A stretch of 39,612 nt of DNA from the IMG/VR virus record IMGVR_UViG_3300022758_000169. One strand, 5' to 3'. The notes under the pieces are model-generated. The model did not search any database and was not told the origin of the DNA. It saw nothing but the letters and a program-made list of their open reading frames with translations. The stretch is from a virus. Lineage: Duplodnaviria > Heunggongvirae > Uroviricota > Caudoviricetes. The position numbers were made by a program, and so were the translations under genes. Below are positions 1 to 39,612 of the stretch, one piece after another (the first letter of the stretch is position 1; each line of letters starts with the position of its first letter).

Positions 1-357
1 TGGATATCACGCAGGCATTTGCTCACACCGACGATGTAGCAGAACATGGTGGTCAGCTCCGCCGCCGCGCCCGATACGTCGTGCCCGTCGTCCTGTAACT
101 GGTTCAGCAGATTCATCAGCAGTGAGTTCTCCGTCAGGCCGAGAACACCAGATGGGGAATGAATCAGGCTGCGGTAGCCGGGCTTCAGTGGGGCACTGTA
201 GGTTTTGTTCTCTATCTTCATCGCCTGCATTACTGCTGACGCCGTGGCGTTGGCTACCTGGTCGGCAACCATCTTTATGCGTTCTTCTTGCGGGAGCGAG
301 TTTTTTATGTAACTTCCGGTGCGGCGGATCTGAGGAAGAACCTCACCTGTAACCCAT
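1..357. repeat. inverted repeat, left copy (antirepressor C-terminal module); reverse complement of 39256..39612
   Basis: Direct comparison: window start tggatatcacgcaggca is the reverse complement of the window end; about 98 percent identity over 357 bp with roughly 8 mismatches. Confidence 0.9.
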
Positions 358-668
358 TTACGAAAGCGGTAGGGGATAGTGCCTGGTGTCACTGCGTCGC
401 GGCAGCGGAGGATCAGTGTGTAGAGGCCTGACTCGGAGATGATGTTGATCTCTTTTACTCGGCTGTCAAAAATTGCACGATGTTCATGCCCTATGTTGAA
501 CATAGACCTTTCATCATCATCCAGTTTTTCAAGTGCTTGGGTGACGTTTTGGATACGCAGCGCACTACAAACGTCTTGGGCTACAAACCATGGTTGGCCA
601 TCGATAATGATGGAACGGATAGGGTTAACAGATTCAAATTTGAAGATGGAAGTTTGAGCATTAGCCAT
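1..668 (-). CDS. antirepressor, BRO-N-type N-terminal domain plus shared C-terminal module; 3' end cut by window edge
   Basis: ATG at 668..666 preceded by GGAGAT; translation MANAQTSIFKFESVNPIRSIIIDGQPWFVAQDVCSAL...ISESGLYTLIL...FRKWVTGEVLPQIRRTGSY is a BRO-N-like pattern; reading frame open to the window start. Confidence 0.75.
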   Translation of the reverse strand, partial: MANAQTSIFKFESVNPIRSIIIDGQPWFVAQDVCSALRIQNVTQALEKLDDDERSMFNIGHEHRAIFDSRVKEINIISESGLYTLILRCRDAVTPGTIPYRFRKWVTGEVLPQIRRTGSYIKNSLPQEERIKMVADQVANATASAVMQAMKIENKTYSAPLKPGYRSLIHSPSGVLGLTENSLLMNLLNQLQDDGHDVSGAAAELTTMFCYIVGVSKCLRDI

Positions 669-823
669 GGTGGTTATCTCCACTTAGTGATTTTAATCAC
701 CACCGCAACGCCAATTACTGGTGGTGAACTGGACAAGGTTGGCGTACCGGCCTAAGTGGTACCGGCGTCCTTTCGGACCCCTGCCCAGCCCACCATAATT
801 CGGATATAGCTGTGCTTAACGCA

Positions 824-945
824 TAAAAAAACCACGTCTGGCGTGGTATGCGCCACTTAGTAACCCGGGACGCCAATCCCGGCACTGGATTTTGCCAGTG
901 CCCGATTACTATGGCACAAGAGGAGTGCGATGTAAATTTACCGAA
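824..945 (-). ncRNA. candidate structured antisense small RNA (c4-like), copy A
   Basis: Promoter TTGATT-N17-TATTAT on minus strand, predicted three-way-junction fold, hairpin loop UUGGCGU, terminator hairpin CCACG/CGTGG followed by U7; homologous to 38686..38806. Confidence 0.45.
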
Positions 946-952
946 AAGGTAA
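938..952. promoter_or_regulatory. operator-like palindrome TTACCGAAAAGGTAA
   Basis: TTACC-N5-GGTAA overlapping the predicted start of sRNA copy A. Confidence 0.5.
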
Positions 953-1099
953 TAATAGACGAAGATAAATATCAAAATCAACCATATTTGGTTAAGGTGT
1001 ATAAAAGAGCCACCAGCGAGAAATTGTACCGCGATGTAAAATAACGAGCATCTGCTGGCTTACAACCAGCGATGTTTCAAACTTGTCACTACTATCAAC

Positions 1100-1498
1100 G
1101 TGCCATTCCACGGCGTAGAACTTTATGTTGTCAATCACAACGGCGAACCGTACACCCCAATGAAACCTATCGTTGAGGGAATGGGTCTAGACTGGAAATC
1201 TCAACATAAGAAGATTTCTCAACGCTTCTCGAAGGGTATGGTGGAAATCACCATACCTTCTGCCGGAGGGGTGCAAGCCATGATTTGTATGGCTTTACGA
1301 AAATTGGCAGCTTGGTTGAACAGCATCAGTCCAAACAAAGTCCGCCCTGAAATCCGCGATAAGGTAATCCAGTATCAGGAAGAGTGTGATGATGTGCTCT
1401 ACGAGTACTGGACTAAAGGCCATGTGGTTAACCCGCGCAAAGCTAAAAAGGTGTTGCCGGGTAAAATCACGACTGAACAGCAGGAGGTATACACTTAA
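1100..1498 (+). CDS. antirepressor-like protein (recalled P22 antirepressor N-terminal domain pattern)
   Basis: ORF with motif GEPY...EGMGLDWKSQHKKI; divergent from sRNA/antirepressor copy A. Domain assignment from memory. Confidence 0.45.
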   Translation: MPFHGVELYVVNHNGEPYTPMKPIVEGMGLDWKSQHKKISQRFSKGMVEITIPSAGGVQAMICMALRKLAAWLNSISPNKVRPEIRDKVIQYQEECDDVLYEYWTKGHVVNPRKAKKVLPGKITTEQQEVYT

Positions 1499-1558: not shown

Positions 1559-2086
1559 ATGGAAGTTTTCTTAATCATCGTCGGCATCGTGATTATTAAT
1601 TTTGTTTTTTTATTTATTGCAAAAAAACAAAAAAGTAACGATATGCATGTTTCTACAACTGATGATCTTACCTTTGTAGAGCATGCACTGAATGTATCAG
1701 GATATAAACTCACCCCATACGGAGCTGGTGTATCACTCATGTCTTTAAGTAACGGTTTTTCAAAAGAAGAAACATTTTCACATATAGCTTTGATGGCTCT
1801 TTCTCAACACGCCAAAGTCGCAGGTAGTGACGCAATTGAGCTTAGTAAAGTTAGCATTCGTGCGATGTCGATAGCTGAAAACTTAACTAAATTATTCAGG
1901 AAAGGTCTTATTCGATCAGAAATATATAAAAATGATTTGAATGCTATCATGGCTGTCAGCACAATTAATGAAAACCAAGAGGATTGGATTTCCATAGTTC
2001 TGGAAAGCAATAGCACATCTAACAAGGATACTATTGCTTTGCCGATAAGTGCAGAAGCTTCTTTAGAAGCCATAAACAGCCATTGA
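1559..2086 (+). CDS. membrane-anchored hypothetical protein (moron), AT-rich
   Basis: SD GAGGAAAA then ATG; N-terminus MEVFLIIVGIVIINFVFLFIA is a predicted TM helix; AT-rich codon usage; leader and first 13 nt of CDS shared with the gene at 37837..38565. Confidence 0.6.
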   Translation: MEVFLIIVGIVIINFVFLFIAKKQKSNDMHVSTTDDLTFVEHALNVSGYKLTPYGAGVSLMSLSNGFSKEETFSHIALMALSQHAKVAGSDAIELSKVSIRAMSIAENLTKLFRKGLIRSEIYKNDLNAIMAVSTINENQEDWISIVLESNSTSNKDTIALPISAEASLEAINSH

Positions 2087-17159: not shown

Positions 17160-17236
17160 GTGGCATTAGCTCAGTTGGACAGAGCAACCGCCTTCTAAGC
17201 GGTTGGTCGCAGGTTCGAATCCTGCATGCCACGCCA
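17160..17236 (+). tRNA. tRNA-Arg (anticodon UCU), phage-encoded
   Basis: Manual cloverleaf: acceptor GTGGCAT/ATGCCAC, D-stem GCTC/GAGC, anticodon stem ACCGC/GCGGT with loop CTTCTAA, T-arm GCAGG-TTCGAAT-CCTGC, discriminator G, encoded CCA. Confidence 0.85.
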
Positions 17237-29564: not shown

Positions 29565-29888
29565 AATCACGCCTGACGAATCGCGATTATCTCGCTATTG
29601 GTATTGCAGAGATTGCTGGACTCAATGGCGCATGATTTGACAATGCCGCCAGAGCTATCGCATACTGACCGCACTAGAAAACAAACAGCGGTCATCCGCA
29701 CCCGATAGCTTTGCGGCTTTTTTATGCCTGCAATCTGGCATAGTCACATCCGTACAAAGGTCGGGTGGAGAGGCGTAATACAACACCCGAAAGGGGAATA
29801 TGCCCGGAGCTACTGTTTGTGCTCTAGTTGACACCCGATCACCAGCTACTAACTGGTTTTCGTAACTAAAAACAAACAGGAGGTCATC

Positions 29889-30545
29889 ATGACCAGTCAA
29901 CTCATCCCCGTATTCAACGGCACTATATCTAACGAAACAGCCCTACTTTGTAATGCCCGCGATCTGCACGCTTTTTTAGGTGTTAAAAAGGTGTTTGCAG
30001 CATGGATTACAAATCGCATATCAGAATACGAATTCATTGAAAATCAAGACTATATTTTGCTTTCCAATTTGGGAAAGCAAACATCTGGTAGAGGCGGCCA
30101 CAACCGCAAAGAGTACCACCTCACCCTTGATACAGCCAAAGAGCTGGCGATGGTCGAGCGTAACGAAAAAGGTCGCCAGGTGCGACGCTACTTCATTGAA
30201 TGCGAGAAACGTTTAAGACAACAAGAAACAAAAGTGGAGAAGGTCTTGTCAGGCTTCATGCCCGCCATTATGGAGGCGATCAAGCTGGAAGACAAAAAAG
30301 AATACAGTGCCCCACTGAAGCCCGGCTACCGCAGCCTGATTCACTCGCCGTCTGGTGTTCTCGGCCTGACGGAGCACTCACTGCTGATGAATCTGCTGAA
30401 CCAGTTACAGGACGACGGGCACGACGTATCGGGCGCGGCGGCGGAGCTGACCACCATGTTCTGCTACATCGTCGGTGTGAGCAAATGCCTGCGTGATATC
30501 CAGACTCACGCGGAGTACATCAACGACAAGGCAGGGTTCTTCTGA
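29889..30545 (+). CDS. antirepressor (AntA/KilA-N-like N-terminal domain plus shared C-terminal module)
   Basis: Strong SD AGGAGG; C-terminal 68 aa nearly identical at DNA level to the two terminal copies. Confidence 0.7.
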
Positions 30546-30578: not shown

Positions 30579-31829
30579 TTATTCCCCCGCTATCCACTTC
30601 TCAAACTTCGACGGGGAGAACGGAATCAGATCTGTATGCTCCCCGTTAATCCAGGAATCAATCATATCGGCCCACTGCTGCAACATGTAGGCGCGCTGTC
30701 TGGCGTATTCCGCTTTGTTATATACGGCGCGCACACCTTTCTGCTCATGTGCCAGAGCCTTTTCAATCCAGTCTGAAGGATAACCAGCCTCATGCAACAA
30801 CGTACTGGCTGTACGGCGCATATCATGTACAGTGAAGTCCTGAATATGCTCACCATCTTCATTTATTATTTTCACCGTTCTGTCGATCAGAGAGTTCAGC
30901 GCGGCATTAGATAATGGCTTCCGGAAATTGTAACGACCAGGAACCAGATATTCACTTCCACCAGCGCACATCTGCAACCCGACCAATATATCCTGTGCCT
31001 GTTTAGGCAGGTAAATAACGTGCGCCCGGCTTCCCTTCATGCGGTCTGGAGGAATTGTCCATGTCCATTTTTTAAAATCTATTTCATCCCACGTTGCATT
31101 GGTGAATTCGCCCTTACGAACCATAGTGATAAGCACCAGTTTTAAAGCCATTTTCATAGTGCCCATAGCACCAATGGCATCCAGCGTACGGAAGAACAGG
31201 CCAATTTCTTCTGGTGTCAGTGTTCGCTCTCGTGGTTTAAATATGGCGATAGACGAAGGTTTAATGTCAGCCGCAGGATTAAACAAACCATGACCACGGT
31301 CATTGGCGTGACGGTATACGCTGCTGATGATCTCCCTTGCCTGTACTGCTGTTGCCCGACCACCGCGTTCGACAATCCGGTCACACAAATCACGAACCAT
31401 CGATGTGGTAATTTCAGCCATCATTTTGTTGCCAAGAACCGGAAGTATGTCACGGTCGATCACTGCCTGCTTCATTGCGCGGGTACTTTCAGCCAGGATG
31501 ACGTGTTTCATATAACTGTCGGTATGTACCGCAAACGTCTCGGCACCACGAATCTTTTTGATACCGTCACGTTTAGCCGCAGCCGGCGACTGGCCTGCTT
31601 TAAGCAGCTTCTTTGCAGCAATCAGTTCTTCTCGCGCTTCTGCCAGGCTGATACCGTCACGCCCATACTGCCCGATTACCAGTGTTTCGCGGCGACCGTT
31701 GATACGGTAGTCATAGCGAAACGAGGCCGTGCCTGACGTAAGCACAGCTACATACAGCCCGTCACGATCGGAGACCTTGTACAGTTTGTCCTGCGGCTTG
31801 AGGTTTTTTAATTTTGTATCGGTAAGCAC
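30579..31829 (-). CDS. int: tyrosine integrase
   Basis: 416-aa ORF; N-terminus MLTDTKLKNLKPQDKLYKVSDRDGLY; catalytic motifs HDMRRT and AVYNKAEY near the C-terminus; apparent GTG start. Confidence 0.85.
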   Translation of the reverse strand: MLTDTKLKNLKPQDKLYKVSDRDGLYVAVLTSGTASFRYDYRINGRRETLVIGQYGRDGISLAEAREELIAAKKLLKAGQSPAAAKRDGIKKIRGAETFAVHTDSYMKHVILAESTRAMKQAVIDRDILPVLGNKMMAEITTSMVRDLCDRIVERGGRATAVQAREIISSVYRHANDRGHGLFNPAADIKPSSIAIFKPRERTLTPEEIGLFFRTLDAIGAMGTMKMALKLVLITMVRKGEFTNATWDEIDFKKWTWTIPPDRMKGSRAHVIYLPKQAQDILVGLQMCAGGSEYLVPGRYNFRKPLSNAALNSLIDRTVKIINEDGEHIQDFTVHDMRRTASTLLHEAGYPSDWIEKALAHEQKGVRAVYNKAEYARQRAYMLQQWADMIDSWINGEHTDLIPFSPSKFEKWIAGE

Positions 31830-31974: not shown

Positions 31975-32123
31975 TGAATTAGTATCTGAATAGGAATGAC
32001 TTGCTATGAGTTAGCTGTTAATCATTCCCACTCAATTATTTACGACAACCATAACCAATTGACTGATAACATTTTTCCAAACCTCAACTTTTCCCGTACC
32101 GTTTTATATACCGTCACCGGAAA

Positions 32124-37481: not shown

Positions 37482-37556
37482 TTTGCAAAACGTGCTGGAT
37501 AGCAAACAAATTATTTGATACTGTATAAATATCAGTTATTGCATGGAGAAGATAAG

Positions 37557-37814
37557 ATGCAGCAGTATCACTATCCACTGGAAGACGGATTTACCGAAAG
37601 GATTCACACGCCGGGAGGCGTCAGGTCACTGGTGGAGGGATCGCACTTGATGAAATTACTCCGGGATCTCGATAAGGATGGATTTAATGTCGATGGCCCA
37701 CTTGCCGAACTGACTGCACTGATTAACTACGTCACCAGCTCACAGATGTCTATGCAGGATCTGCAAACACATCTCGACTATTGTGCCGAACAATTACGAA
37801 AACAAACCCGGTAA
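37557..37814 (+). CDS. hypothetical protein (85 aa)
   Basis: SD GGAGAAG then ATG; convergent with the gene at 37837..38565. Confidence 0.45.
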   Translation: MQQYHYPLEDGFTERIHTPGGVRSLVEGSHLMKLLRDLDKDGFNVDGPLAELTALINYVTSSQMSMQDLQTHLDYCAEQLRKQTR

Positions 37815-37820
37815 ATTTAA

Positions 37821-37838
37821 AGGCCGCAAGAGCGGCCT
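37821..37838. terminator. hairpin between convergent genes
   Basis: AGGCCGC-aaga-GCGGCCT. Confidence 0.35.
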
Positions 37839-38565
37839 ATCGTTTCGCTTTGTGCTCGTCCCAGCACGTTTTGCACCATGCCATTAAGCCGTCCGCATTT
37901 TGATTATTAGGGTAAAAGCTGGTCCGTTTTCTGCGGACATTACAAATTGGGCACCACTTCATATGGCGTGTATTCTTTGGGCCATCGAGACACCTTGCAC
38001 ACCACTTAGTCAATCCATCTGGATTTTTTGACGATTTCCGGAATTTGTCATATGGAAGGTTTATTCTGCATCGCAAACACTGCTTGCGGCCACTTGAAAC
38101 TCTGTTAGCTGATTCTTCTTTTGGCGGCGATACAGAAGGTATTCTTGCTGGCTCTGATACTGCCTGAGGTGCTTTTTTAGATGACTGAGACGATATGTCA
38201 TCACCAGGGAATCTTCCATGATATGCCGGACGCGTTGACACTCCAGGTGGAAGCTCAGCTGTAAACGGCTTTGGCTGAATCAGTTGCCTCTCTTTTGCTA
38301 ACTCCTGCTGTTTATAATATGTCTGGATTACCGCACTATCATAAGCAGGAGGTACGGAAATATCAGGCGCGTTACCTCCAGTTTTTTGAAAATGAGTAGA
38401 TGTGTGTTCTATCACCTGTGTACGACTAATCGTTACCTCCCCATCTTCGGTCTTTATCGTTTTGTTCTGATTAACGACCGTACGATCAGAGATCTTAGTC
38501 TTGTTCTGGTTGATAACGTAAATAATCACCGCAACCACACCAACAACTATCCAGAAAACTTCCAT
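37837..38565 (-). CDS. membrane-anchored protein with C-terminal double Cys4 repeats (moron)
   Basis: N-terminus MEVFWIVVGVVAVIIYVI is a predicted TM helix; C-terminal repeats CLRC...WCARC and CPIC...WCKTC; promoter, leader and start shared with the ORF at 1559. Confidence 0.55.
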   Translation of the reverse strand: MEVFWIVVGVVAVIIYVINQNKTKISDRTVVNQNKTIKTEDGEVTISRTQVIEHTSTHFQKTGGNAPDISVPPAYDSAVIQTYYKQQELAKERQLIQPKPFTAELPPGVSTRPAYHGRFPGDDISSQSSKKAPQAVSEPARIPSVSPPKEESANRVSSGRKQCLRCRINLPYDKFRKSSKNPDGLTKWCARCLDGPKNTRHMKWCPICNVRRKRTSFYPNNQNADGLMAWCKTCWDEHKAKR

Positions 38566-38585
38566 TGCTTTTCCTCACAATAACA

Positions 38586-38600
38586 TTACCTTAAAGGTAA
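38586..38600. promoter_or_regulatory. operator-like palindrome TTACCTTAAAGGTAA
   Basis: Upstream of the minus-strand gene at 38565; mirror of the site at 1524..1538. Confidence 0.5.
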
Positions 38601-38678
38601 TATCTTGCTTTCAGGTGATCAAGCGTTAAACGCAATCAACCAAATACGGTTGATTTTAATATTTCTTCGCGTTTATCA

Positions 38679-38693
38679 TTACCTTTGCGGTAA
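38679..38693. promoter_or_regulatory. operator-like palindrome TTACCTTTGCGGTAA overlapping the sRNA promoter
   Basis: Promoter TTGATT (38651..38656) - N17 - TATCAT (38674..38679); the site covers the predicted start. Confidence 0.5.
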
Positions 38694-38806
38694 ATTTACA
38701 TCGCACTCCTCTTGTGCCATAGTAATCGGGCACTGGCAAAATCCAGTGCCGGGATTGGTCTCCCGGATTACTACAGAGGCACATATGCCGCATAAGCGGT
38801 TTTTTT
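38686..38806 (+). ncRNA. candidate structured antisense small RNA (c4-like), copy B
   Basis: Predicted fold: outer stem 38713..38718/38778..38783, stem 38721..38727/38766..38772, hairpin 38729..38750, hairpin 38751..38764 with loop UUGGUC, then terminator hairpin plus U7 (38800..38806). Confidence 0.5.
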
Positions 38807-38960
38807 ATGTGTAAAGCGCACCTATTCTATGGTGGGCTGTGTGGGGGCACCGAAAGGTGCGCCGGGTTCCTTTGTAGCCGGTAAGACCAACTCTGCACAG
38901 TTCACCACCATCTGATTGGTCTCAGCGGTGGTGATTAACCTAACTACAAAGGTGATCGCC

Positions 38961-39612
38961 ATGAATACCAAACCTTCCATCTTTTCCTTTGAGTTATCCT
39001 GCCAGATCCGTATGTTCATGATTGACGGAGAACCTTGGTTTGTCACCAAAGATGTGTGCAATGCTTTGAATATTGATGTTACACAAGCGAGAAAACTTGA
39101 TAAAAAAGGGCTGGAACAAAAAGGGGGTCTGTATTCAATACAGACCCCTGGTGGAATACAAGAACTATCCATCGTTTCAGATCAGGTCTCTACATCCTTA
39201 TTCTGCGTTGCAAAGAGGCAATGACTGAGGGAACGAGAGCATTCAGATTTCTTGAATGGGTTACAGGTGAGGTTCTTCCTCAGATCCGCCGCACCGGAAG
39301 TTACATTAAAAACTCGCTCCCGCAGGAAGAACGCATAAAGATGGTTGCCGACCAGGTAGCCAACGCCACGGCGTCAGCAGTAATGCAGGCGATGAAGATA
39401 GAGAACAAAACCTACAGTGCCCCGCTGAAGCCCGGCTACCGCAGCCTGATTCATTCGCCGTCGGGTGTTCTCGGCCTGACGGAGCACTCACTGCTGATGA
39501 ATCTGCTGAACCAGTTACAGGACGACGGGCACGACGTATCGGGCGCGGCGGCGGAGCTGACCACCATGTTCTGCTACATCGTCGGTGTGAGCAAATGCCT
39601 GCGTGATATCCA
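38961..39612 (+). pseudogene. antirepressor (BRO-N plus shared C-terminal module), frame-disrupted by a 1-nt deletion near 39182; 3' end cut by window edge
   Basis: BRO-N frame (MNTKPSIFSF...) stops at 39224; homology continues in the +2 frame (SGLYILILRCKEAMTEGTRAFRFLEWVTGEV...); copy A has GAGTCAGGC where this copy has GATCAGGT. Confidence 0.55.
39256..39612. repeat. inverted repeat, right copy; a third direct copy of the last ~200 bp lies at 30302..30501
   Basis: Direct comparison with 1..357 and with 30302..30501 (about 3 mismatches over 200 bp). Confidence 0.9.

What the first reader, a model, noticed from the sequence alone, without database searches (positions are those of the whole stretch)
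1..357. Window begins and ends at the same point inside inverted copies of one antirepressor module
Positions 1..357 are the reverse complement of 39256..39612 at about 98 percent identity. The mismatches include a codon change (TENSLL versus TEHSLL), so this is not a simple assembly mirror artefact. A third direct copy of the last 200 bp sits inside the antirepressor at 30302..30501 and shows the module continues about 45 nt past the point where both terminal copies are cut. The contig therefore probably broke at a repeat, and the true genome has two convergent antirepressor genes with a short missing segment between them. Homologous recombination between these inverted copies would invert the segment between them. 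The three antirepressors share a C-terminal module (likely the repressor-contacting part) but carry different N-terminal domains (BRO-N twice, AntA/KilA-like once), indicating domain shuffling or gene conversion.
Basis: seen in the sequence. Interest (0 to 1): 0.6.

Follow-up and report, generated by a model that had tools for sequence, protein, structure and literature searches.

The report
Assembly break inside duplicated phage antirepressor genes
The two ends of this contig are the cut-off tails of two converging, partly identical antirepressor genes of an ordinary temperate E. coli phage; the assembler could not cross that repeat, so about 1.4 kb carrying a small cargo cassette is missing. 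That is a routine assembly effect sitting in a recombination-prone regulatory region.

Summary
Positions 1-357 are the reverse complement of 39256-39612 at 350/357 identity, and a third copy lies at 30290-30502.

The first 127 nt are exactly identical and the first mismatch is at base 128. That is the signature of a k=127 de Bruijn assembler stopping at a shared k-mer.

The window is a nearly complete phiV10/epsilon15-like (Uetakevirus) E. coli phage in its circular form; it crosses an intact attP. Its ends are two convergent Bro-N antirepressor genes, antA and antB.

The gap is not short. A close relative with the same arrangement (IMG/VR 2541047735_000003) has 1,357 nt between the two cut points. 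That stretch holds a 108-aa gene, a YafO-like toxin and a 53-aa membrane protein.

The repeated module is homologous to the SPC32H Ant protein crystallised with its repressor (PDB 5D50). The window also encodes the Rep orthologue and a stand-alone Ant.

Each antirepressor has its own isrK/C4-like antisense RNA leader, whose loop matches that gene's own ribosome-binding site.

Between two near-identical prophages the whole 3.25-kb double-antirepressor unit is inverted, with breakpoints in an outer repeat. Active flipping at the inner repeat is not shown. The finding is ordinary and its parts are known.

The parts
1..668 (-). antA: Bro-N::Ant-C antirepressor gene. The ATG is at 668 and the gene is cut at the window edge, 43 nt before its stop codon.
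   Evidence: Translation. Pfam Bro-N 8.9e-20. Full-length 236-aa homologue in L038.
1..431 (.). Inner inverted-repeat arm A. 1-357 is 98% identical to the other arm and 1-127 is exactly identical. It encodes the linker and the Ant-like repressor-binding domain.
   Evidence: In L038 the full inner repeat is 504 nt.
717..800 (-). C4-like antisense RNA of the antA leader. Its loop CCACUUAG is complementary to the antA ribosome-binding region CUAAGUGG.
   Evidence: Rfam RF01695, 66 bits against a gathering score of 45. Loop/target covariation.
825..901 (-). isrK-like RNA of the antA leader, with its terminator at 831-847.
   Evidence: Rfam RF01394, 67.7 bits against a gathering score of 50. Terminator scan.
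858..993 (.). Outer inverted-repeat arm on the antA side. It holds the isrK 5' end and the promoter-like site TTTACA-17-CATAGT (908-936, - strand). The inversion breakpoint relative to the E. coli A_5 prophage lies near 952.
1100..1498 (+). 132-aa ORF consisting only of a P22_AR_N domain, apparently the remnant of another antirepressor. It belongs to the fixed flank, not to the invertible unit.
   Evidence: Pfam 5e-44. Present at this position in relatives.
1559..2086 (+). 175-aa flank gene of unknown function (PHROG 21690). It was used as the anchor to collect related loci.
25083..25667 (+). Rep, the orthologue of the SPC32H repressor and the presumed common target of all the Ant-domain proteins.
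   Evidence: PDB 5D50 chain A, E=4.5e-42, full length.
29759..29848 (+). sRNA-Xcc1-family (C4-like) RNA in the antC leader. Its loop CUGUUUGU is complementary to ACAAACAG, which abuts the antC Shine-Dalgarno sequence.
   Evidence: Rfam RF02221, 64.8 bits against a gathering score of 53. Sequence.
29889..30545 (+). antC: complete AntA::Ant-C antirepressor gene. It contains the third repeat copy at 30290-30502.
   Evidence: Pfam AntA 4.2e-26..
32020..32036 (.). attP core AATCATTCCCACTCAAT, lying between the integrase gene (30579-31829, - strand) and the lysis genes. It shows the window is the excised, circular form of the phage.
   Evidence: The core sequence is taken from PMC9782041.
37557..37814 (+). 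Stand-alone Ant (85 aa), the orthologue of the SPC32H antirepressor.
   Evidence: PDB 5D50 chain E, E=4.1e-47.
38638..38773 (.). Outer inverted-repeat arm on the antB side, with the promoter-like site at 38695-38723. The inversion breakpoint relative to the E. coli A_5 prophage lies near 38638.
38730..38806 (+). isrK-like RNA of the antB leader.
   Evidence: Rfam RF01394, 74.7 bits.
38825..38912 (+). C4-like antisense RNA of the antB leader. Its loop CCUUUGUAG is complementary to the antB ribosome-binding region CUACAAAGG.
   Evidence: Rfam RF01695, 78.6 bits..
38961..39612 (+). antB: Bro-N::Ant-C antirepressor gene, cut at the window edge. In this window it is frameshifted (-1 nt near 39181, stop at 39222-39224). 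It contains inner repeat arm B at 39182-39612.
   Evidence: Intact copies in L004 and L038.

Best explanation
What it is: the window is one contig holding almost all of a roughly 41-kb phiV10/epsilon15-like temperate E. coli podophage, assembled from its circular (excised) form.

Why the contig ends there: both ends lie in the 3' halves of two convergent antirepressor genes, antA and antB. Those halves form a roughly 0.5-kb inverted repeat. A de Bruijn-graph assembler with k=127 stopped at the first 127-mer shared by both copies, so both ends fall at the same codon.

What is missing: in the closest relative with the same arrangement the unassembled piece is 1,357 nt. It holds the last 43 nt of each gene plus a three-gene cargo cassette (a 108-aa protein, a YafO-family toxin and a 53-aa membrane protein) lying downstream of antA.

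How the locus probably works (inferred): the repeated DNA encodes an SPC32H-Ant-like domain that binds the phage repressor Rep. Three genes fuse this domain to different N-terminal domains. Each gene has its own promoter, isrK-like RNA and C4-like antisense RNA, and the antisense loop pairs with that gene's own ribosome-binding site. They would therefore act as separately controlled triggers aimed at one repressor.

Why the repeat stays so similar (inferred): it is kept nearly identical by recombination or gene conversion, and the repeats let modules, and the whole unit, be exchanged or inverted between phages.
For: Repeat and k-mer signature:
- 350/357 identity, exact for 127 nt, first mismatch at base 128; the third copy carries the same 127-mer.

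Phage identity and completeness:
- 97-98% DNA identity to TL-2011b, ZX5 and phiV10 over most of the window.
- The attP core is intact at 32020 and no host DNA is present.

Geometry in relatives:
- All 10 E. coli loci found through the 175-aa flank gene have two convergent antirepressor genes with cargo between them. TL-2011b and the A_5 prophage have the same layout.

Same arrangement, resolved:
- L038 matches window 1304-1 at 98.1% and window 39612-38673 at 98.6%, with 1,357 nt between the two cut points.
- Its inner repeat is 504 nt.

Function of the repeated module:
- It matches PDB 5D50 chain E, labelled anti-repressor, at E=4.8e-14.
- The window has a Rep orthologue (E=4.5e-42) and a stand-alone Ant orthologue (E=4.1e-47).
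- ZX5 ORF4 is also a Bro-N antirepressor. Its gene matches the window's repeated C-terminal module almost base for base. Overexpressing it lowered lysogeny (PMC9782041).

RNA leaders:
- isrK and C4 score above Rfam gathering thresholds at both ends.
- The antisense loop and its target covary in four classes across 57 copies.

Recombination:
- L038 and the A_5 prophage differ by a 3,249-nt inversion at 99.1% identity with collinear flanks.
- The window's two ends show the same inversion relative to A_5.
Against: - No reads are available, so the assembler, its k value and the exact missing sequence for this phage are inferred.
- The window's own cargo could differ from L038's. Cargo varies between relatives.
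- antB merges with the internal copy antC 22 nt before the contig end. The contig is therefore a resolved path, not a plain unitig, and the k=127 reading needs the extra assumption that the assembler trimmed the part shared by both ends.
- Rep binding by the fused C-terminal domain rests on homology only.
- antB is frameshifted here, so this phage may have only one working gene of the convergent pair.
Confidence: 0.85

Rival explanations
1. The phage population that was sequenced held both orientations of the segment between the repeats, or several different cargo variants. On this view the mixture broke the assembly, not just the length of the repeat.
For: - The inner repeat is only about 0.5 kb and its exact part is short, so paired reads would often resolve it.
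- The assembler did cross the third copy, which carries the same 127-mer.
- Relatives show an inversion of the whole unit.
- One cassette occurs in both orientations relative to an AntA-type gene (L006 versus L030, 98.3% identity).
- Cargo is hypervariable between relatives.
Against: - The clean inversion seen in relatives uses the outer repeat, while the contig broke at the inner one.
- A modelled inner flip of the L006 arrangement was found in 0 of 5,426 complete genomes, whereas the native arrangement was found in 31.
- No invertase gene is present.
- A repeat break alone explains the data.
Confidence: 0.15
2. The inverted ends are a mirror or chimeric artefact, such as a fold-back read or a palindromic misjoin, and only one antirepressor gene exists at this locus.
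For: Both ends stop at the same base, and the last 127 nt are an exact inverted repeat.
Against: - There are seven mismatches in 357 nt.
- The N-terminal domains are only 62% identical and the RNA leaders 79% identical.
- The flanks on the two sides differ.
- Independent finished genomes carry both genes, and L038 and E. coli N21 have the same A-type gene at this position.
Confidence: 0.02
3. The two ends come from two different co-resident prophages or phage strains, and the contig is a chimeric path through a shared repeat.
For: E. coli genomes carry up to 7 places matching these modules.
Against: - The window is collinear with single phage genomes throughout.
- It crosses attP.
- L038 has the same pair of genes at the same two positions within one prophage.
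Confidence: 0.04
4. The phage has a linear genome with true inverted terminal repeats.
For: The contig carries a terminal inverted repeat.
Against: - The ends fall inside open reading frames that continue in relatives.
- Relatives are circular records or integrated prophages in which this region is internal.
- The genome encodes terminase genes (annotated in close relatives), an integrase ORF and an intact attP core.
Confidence: 0.01

Closest known systems
Rep/Ant antirepression system of the Salmonella epsilon15-like podophage SPC32H (PDB 5D50; Kim & Ryu 2013 and the later structural work, cited from reference lists and from memory)
   Same: The window has a full-length Rep orthologue (E=4.5e-42) and an 85-aa Ant orthologue (E=4.1e-47) next to the tailspike gene. 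The module repeated at the window ends is homologous to that Ant (E=4.8e-14).
   Different: Here the Ant-like domain is also fused to Bro-N or AntA N-terminal domains in three extra genes. Each of those genes sits behind an antisense-RNA leader. Whether the stand-alone Ant is under LexA control, as I recall it is in SPC32H, was not established: the candidate box has a 9-nt spacer, not the usual 10 nt.
E. coli phage vB_EcoP_ZX5 ORF4 anti-repressor (PMC9782041)
   Same: It belongs to the same genus and sits at the same locus next to the tailspike gene. It has the same Bro-N plus C-terminal module, which is nearly identical in DNA to window 39256-39612. Overexpression lowered lysogeny.
   Different: ZX5 has a single antirepressor followed by cargo, with no convergent second copy.
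Gifsy-1 isrK-orf45-anrP locus (PMC4825925)
   Same: An isrK RNA with a leaky terminator lies upstream of an antirepressor gene and is transcribed from its own promoter. Both leaders here score above the Rfam isrK gathering threshold.
   Different: No conserved orf45-like reading frame is coupled to the antirepressor gene here. A C4-like RNA occupies that interval. Activation by IsrK in trans was not tested.
P1/P7 ImmI region (c4 antisense RNA - icd - ant), from established knowledge
   Same: A C4-family RNA lies in the leader of an antirepressor gene, and its loop is complementary to a downstream site in the same transcript. Different specificities give separately controlled modules.
   Different: There is no icd gene. 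The target overlaps the antirepressor's own Shine-Dalgarno sequence. The antirepressor proteins are unrelated to P1 Ant.
E. coli phage TL-2011b and the E. coli A_5 prophage, which carry the double antirepressor locus
   Same: They have two convergent antirepressor genes sharing the C-terminal module, with a YafO-family toxin cassette and the 53-aa gene between them.
   Different: In A_5 the whole 3.25-kb unit lies in the opposite orientation relative to the flanks. TL-2011b has a P22_AR_N-type gene at one position.

Membership tests
SPC32H-type Ant (repressor-binding antirepressor domain) | Sequence homology to the Ant chain of the Rep-Ant crystal complex 5D50 | tested here: met
   The repeated C-terminal module matches at E=4.8e-14 over 77 residues. 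The stand-alone 85-aa gene matches at E=4.1e-47.
SPC32H-type Ant (repressor-binding antirepressor domain) | A cognate Rep encoded in the same genome | tested here: met
   Window 25083-25667 matches 5D50 chain A at E=4.5e-42 over its full length.
SPC32H-type Ant (repressor-binding antirepressor domain) | Physical binding to Rep and disassembly of the Rep tetramer | not testable with these tools
   This needs biochemistry. Only indirect support exists, from ZX5 ORF4 overexpression (PMC9782041).
SPC32H-type Ant (repressor-binding antirepressor domain) | SOS (LexA) control of ant | tested here: inconclusive
   No CTGT-N8-ACAG box lies near any antirepressor gene. A LexA-like palindrome, ACTGTATAAATATCAGT, lies upstream of the 85-aa ant but has CTG-N9-CAG spacing.
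BRO-N / AntA antirepressor families (Pfam PF02498, PF08346) | The N-terminal domain scores above the Pfam gathering threshold | tested here: met
   antA Bro-N scores 71.6 bits (cut-off 25.6). B-type Bro-N scores 51.4 bits, measured on the intact MS20653 copy and not on the window's frameshifted antB. antC AntA scores 91.8 bits (cut-off 27).
C4 antisense RNA (Rfam RF01695), P1 ImmI-type control | Covariance-model match above the gathering score | tested here: met
   78.6 and 66 bits against a gathering score of 45. The antC leader matches the related family sRNA-Xcc1 at 64.8 bits against 53.
C4 antisense RNA (Rfam RF01695), P1 ImmI-type control | The loop is complementary to a target in the antirepressor leader, with specificity classes | tested here: met
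   Four loop/target classes covary over 57 copies. The target lies 32-34 nt after the C4 stem and the ATG about 50 nt after it, so the target overlaps the Shine-Dalgarno region.
C4 antisense RNA (Rfam RF01695), P1 ImmI-type control | An icd-like upstream ORF translationally coupled to ant | tested here: not met
   Neither leader has a conserved ORF between the RNA and the antirepressor gene.
isrK-anrP locus (Rfam RF01394) | An isrK RNA with its own promoter and terminator directly upstream of an antirepressor gene | tested here: met
   74.7 and 67.7 bits against a gathering score of 50. Promoter-like and terminator-like sites lie at the expected places.
isrK-anrP locus (Rfam RF01394) | An orf45 reading frame whose translation is needed for antirepressor translation | tested here: not met
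   All three frames of both leaders are interrupted by stop codons.
Programmed invertible DNA switch (Hin/Gin/Cin type or shufflon) | A site-specific invertase gene next to short inverted recombination sites | tested here: not met
   No recombinase lies in or next to the unit in the window or in about 30 related loci; only the phage integrase gene at 30579-31829 is present. The repeats are 0.1-0.5 kb of coding or promoter DNA.
Genome with true inverted terminal repeats | Physical genome ends at the repeats | tested here: not met
   The ends lie inside genes that continue in relatives. The region is internal in circular and prophage records.

The most novel reading that the evidence does not exclude
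The double-antirepressor unit may be a recombination-driven invertible element. On this reading, homologous recombination (by RecA or the phage's own RecET) at the 0.5-kb inner repeat or the outer isrK-promoter repeat flips it at an appreciable rate within a phage population. That would change which separately regulated antirepressor leader drives the toxin/cargo cassette. The resulting mixture of orientations would be what broke this assembly.
Probability: 0.12. Interest if true: 0.5.

Novelty: new member of a known kind. Interest (0 to 1): 0.27.

Why it matters
Practical value comes first. A 127-nt exact inverted terminal repeat can be mistaken for a true ITR and scored as a 'complete genome' by completeness tools (from my own knowledge of such tools). 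In this case it instead marks about 1.4 kb of missing sequence, including a toxin cassette.

Biologically, the locus shows how one repressor-binding domain is reused behind several sensor and leader modules, each with its own antisense RNA. It also shows how the resulting repeats let phages swap or invert these modules and their cargo. This adds to what is known about epsilon15-like phage immunity regions but does not overturn anything.

Tried and rejected
- Recovering the window's own source, or a sibling assembly with the junction resolved. Exact-pattern scans for the window-specific antB indel variant found nothing in viral contigs or metagenome contigs. Exact-protein look-ups of the truncated antB product also found nothing.
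- Using the partial phage records Phi05_2388 B and Phi05_1999 B to extend past the window end. They turned out to be single-antirepressor phages.
- Testing an inner-repeat flip. A synthetic version of the L006 locus with the cassette flipped had no hit at 80% coverage or more in 5,426 complete E. coli genomes, against 31 for the native order. The opposite cassette orientation in L006 versus L030 is explained equally well by inversion of the whole unit or by module exchange.
- Looking for the window's exact isomer in complete E. coli genomes. None covers 80% or more. E. coli N21 has the A-type gene at the same position but a different partner and cargo.
- Looking for an orf45/icd-like coupled ORF in the leaders. 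None was found.
- Looking for a canonical LexA box near the antirepressor genes. None was found.
- Literature searches for a description of this double inverted arrangement found none in the held library. The SPC32H primary paper is not held.

Full report
**1. The observation**

Positions 1-357 are the reverse complement of 39256-39612 with seven mismatches, at 128, 150, 153, 156, 189, 288 and 306 (98.0%). The repeat finder extends the pair to 431 nt at 92%. It also reports two more inverted pairs further in: 858-993/38638-38773 (136 nt, 91%) and 1495-1584/38540-38629 (90 nt, 86%). A direct third copy lies at 30290-30502 (213 nt, 96%).

The TENSLL/TEHSLL difference is real. The third copy continues 43 nt to a stop codon at 30545.

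**2. Why both ends stop at the same base**

The terminal identity is exact for precisely 127 nt, with the first mismatch at base 128. The internal third copy carries the same 127-mer.

In a de Bruijn-graph assembly, a path ends at the first k-mer it shares with another path, that is, k bases after the last distinguishing SNP. 127 is the largest k that SPAdes allows (my own knowledge). I read this as the signature of a k=127 graph break.

One wrinkle remains. antB already merges with the internal copy 22 nt earlier, because their first mismatch is at 150. The contig is therefore a resolved path trimmed where its two ends become the same edges, not a simple unitig. This step is inference; no reads or logs are available.

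**3. What the window is**

- It is 97-98% identical over most of its length to phiV10/epsilon15-like E. coli podophages of genus Uetakevirus. These include TL-2011b, vB_EcoP_ZX5 and phiV10, with genomes of 39-45 kb.
- The integrase gene (30579-31829, - strand) and the lysis genes (from 32124) flank a 294-nt spacer. That spacer holds the published attP core AATCATTCCCACTCAAT at 32020 and no host DNA (core from PMC9782041).
- The contig therefore represents the excised, circular form.

**4. The genes at the ends**

- antA runs from the ATG at 668 leftward off the window and has a Bro-N domain (8.9e-20).
- antB starts at 38961 and runs rightward off the window. Its intact homologue in E. coli MS20653 has a Bro-N domain (1.8e-13).
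- The third gene, antC (29889-30545), has an AntA domain (4.2e-26).
- The N-terminal parts of antA and antB are 62% identical in DNA, and their leaders 79%.
- In this window antB carries three indels that are absent from all 21 B-type copies in related loci. A +G and a +GT together keep the reading frame and turn a quasi-palindrome into a perfect 12-bp one. A missing A near 39181 shifts the frame and gives a stop at 39222-39224. antB may be a pseudogene here, or this may be sequencing error.

**5. What lies in the gap**

- The 175-aa flank gene (1559-2086) recovered ten E. coli loci. All ten have the order: tailspike, 85-aa gene, sometimes a 242-aa gene, antirepressor 1 (+), two or three cargo genes, antirepressor 2 (-), P22_AR_N fragment where the gene caller listed it (a DNA match is present in all ten), 175-aa gene, tail genes. 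TL-2011b and the E. coli A_5 prophage show the same order.
- Beyond the cut point, relatives share 43 nt up to the stop codon plus about 22 nt more. They then diverge into a 'cassette leader' or the terminator of the 53-aa gene.
- A pattern spanning the window-specific junction, from the A-type isrK to the P22_AR_N fragment, found IMG/VR contig 2541047735_000003 (L038, 40,965 nt).
- L038 matches window 1304-1 at 98.1% and window 39612-38673 at 98.6%, with 1,357 nt between the two cut points.
- That segment reads: antA tail, a 108-aa gene, a 170-aa YafO-family toxin (so named in the A_5 annotation), the 53-aa membrane protein, then the tail of an intact antB.
- The complete inner repeat in L038 is 504 nt.
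- The predicted genome size for the window's phage is therefore about 40.97 kb. The 'short missing segment' is not short.

**6. What the repeated module does**

- It has no Pfam match. It does match the anti-repressor chain of PDB 5D50 at E=4.8e-14. Secondary sources describe that entry as the Rep-Ant complex of the epsilon15-like Salmonella phage SPC32H.
- The 85-aa gene next to the tailspike (37557-37814) is the direct orthologue of that Ant (E=4.1e-47).
- Window 25083-25667 is a full-length orthologue of its Rep (E=4.5e-42).
- ZX5 ORF4 is also a Bro-N antirepressor. Its gene matches the window's repeated module almost base for base, and overexpressing it lowered lysogeny.
- This phage has four proteins with the Ant domain, plus a P22_AR_N-only remnant at 1100-1498.

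**7. Regulation**

- Rfam finds isrK (825-901 on the - strand; 38730-38806 on the + strand) and C4 antisense RNA (717-800 on the - strand; 38825-38912 on the + strand) above gathering scores in both leaders. It finds an sRNA-Xcc1-family RNA (29759-29848) ahead of antC.
- The same promoter-like element, TTTACA-17-CATAGT, ends 6-7 nt before each isrK. Each isrK carries a terminator.
- The second hairpin loop of each C4-like RNA is complementary to its own gene's ribosome-binding region. The pairs are CCUUUGUAG/CUACAAAGG for antB, CCACUUAG/CUAAGUGG for antA and CUGUUUGU/ACAAACAG for antC.
- Across 57 copies in the collected loci, loop and target covary in four classes.
- This fits the P1 ImmI logic (established knowledge) and the Gifsy-1 isrK-anrP locus (PMC4825925). 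However, no icd/orf45-like coupled ORF is conserved here.
- I infer three separately controlled triggers acting on one repressor. This was not tested.

**8. Recombination**

- Relative to the E. coli A_5 prophage, window 38638-39612 matches the other position in inverted orientation at 97.95%, and window 1-952 does likewise at 98.95%. The flanks remain collinear.
- With the gap filled, L038 and A_5 differ by a clean 3,249-nt inversion at 99.1% identity. The breakpoints fall in the outer repeat, which holds the isrK promoter and 5' end and has a longest exact run of 71 nt.
- Each antirepressor type occurs at either position in different genomes.
- The same cargo (98.3% identical) sits behind AntA-type, B-type or ZX5-type genes.
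- The repeats are therefore clearly sites of exchange over evolutionary time.
- For the inner repeat specifically, a modelled flip of L006 was absent from 5,426 complete genomes, while the native order occurred in 31.
- No invertase gene is present. I regard the inversions as occasional homologous-recombination events, not a programmed switch.

**9. Comparison and verdict**

All the parts belong to known families: SPC32H Rep/Ant, Bro-N/AntA antirepressors, isrK and C4. The same fusion protein has experimental support in ZX5. I found no description of the convergent pair flanking a cargo cassette, or of its inverted isomers, in the held literature. Even so, it is an arrangement of known parts.

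The finding itself, a window that begins and ends at the same point in inverted copies, is an assembly break. It is a new member of a known kind and of modest interest. Its main value is as a warning about false 'ITR-complete' calls and as a tidy example of module shuffling in phage immunity regions.

Noticed in passing
window 39100-39225: antB carries three indels that are absent from all 21 B-type copies in relatives. Two of them (+G and +GT) keep the reading frame and turn a quasi-palindrome into a perfect 12-bp hairpin (GGGGTCTGTATT/AATACAGACCCC). A missing A near 39181 shifts the frame. This is either templated palindrome correction plus a pseudogene, or sequencing error.
   Followed up: partly
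window 37557-37814 and 25083-25667: These are the stand-alone 85-aa orthologue of SPC32H Ant and the full-length orthologue of SPC32H Rep (PDB 5D50 chains E and A).
   Followed up: yes
window 37519-37535: A LexA-box-like palindrome, ACTGTATAAATATCAGT, lies just upstream of the 85-aa ant gene. Its spacing is CTG-N9-CAG, not the canonical N10.
   Followed up: partly
window 29680-29888: The antC leader has an sRNA-Xcc1-family RNA whose loop CUGUUUGU matches ACAAACAG next to the antC Shine-Dalgarno sequence. A second ACAAACAG lies upstream, near 29681, which is reminiscent of the two C4 target sites in P1.
   Followed up: partly
window 1100-1498: A 132-aa ORF consists only of a P22_AR_N domain. 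It interrupts what is a continuous outer repeat on the other side (38540-38773). TL-2011b has a full-length P22_AR_N::Ant-C gene at this position.
   Followed up: partly
window 37837-38565 (- strand): A 242-aa accessory gene (PHROG 6762) has C-terminal similarity to endonuclease VII, HNH and Lar-like zinc-finger proteins. It is present or absent between otherwise near-identical relatives, and in E. coli N21 a second YafO-family pair takes its place.
   Followed up: no
L007:3244-3330, L010:3148-3280 and other relatives (not in the window): Directly after the stop codon of the antirepressor that precedes the cargo, relatives share a conserved leader with a promoter-like TTGCAG-17-TACTAT. The cassette may therefore have its own promoter.
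   Followed up: no
L036 and L037 (Logan contigs SRR21752466_430 and SRR11080871_178): Other short-read assemblies of related phages also end about 330 nt upstream of the P22_AR_N fragment, that is, in the outer isrK repeat. This region seems to break assemblies routinely.
   Followed up: no
window 17160-17233: A tRNA gene (Rfam, 73 bits) lies in the intergenic region next to the terminase/packaging genes. Relatives annotate a tRNA-Arg within their matching regions.
   Followed up: no
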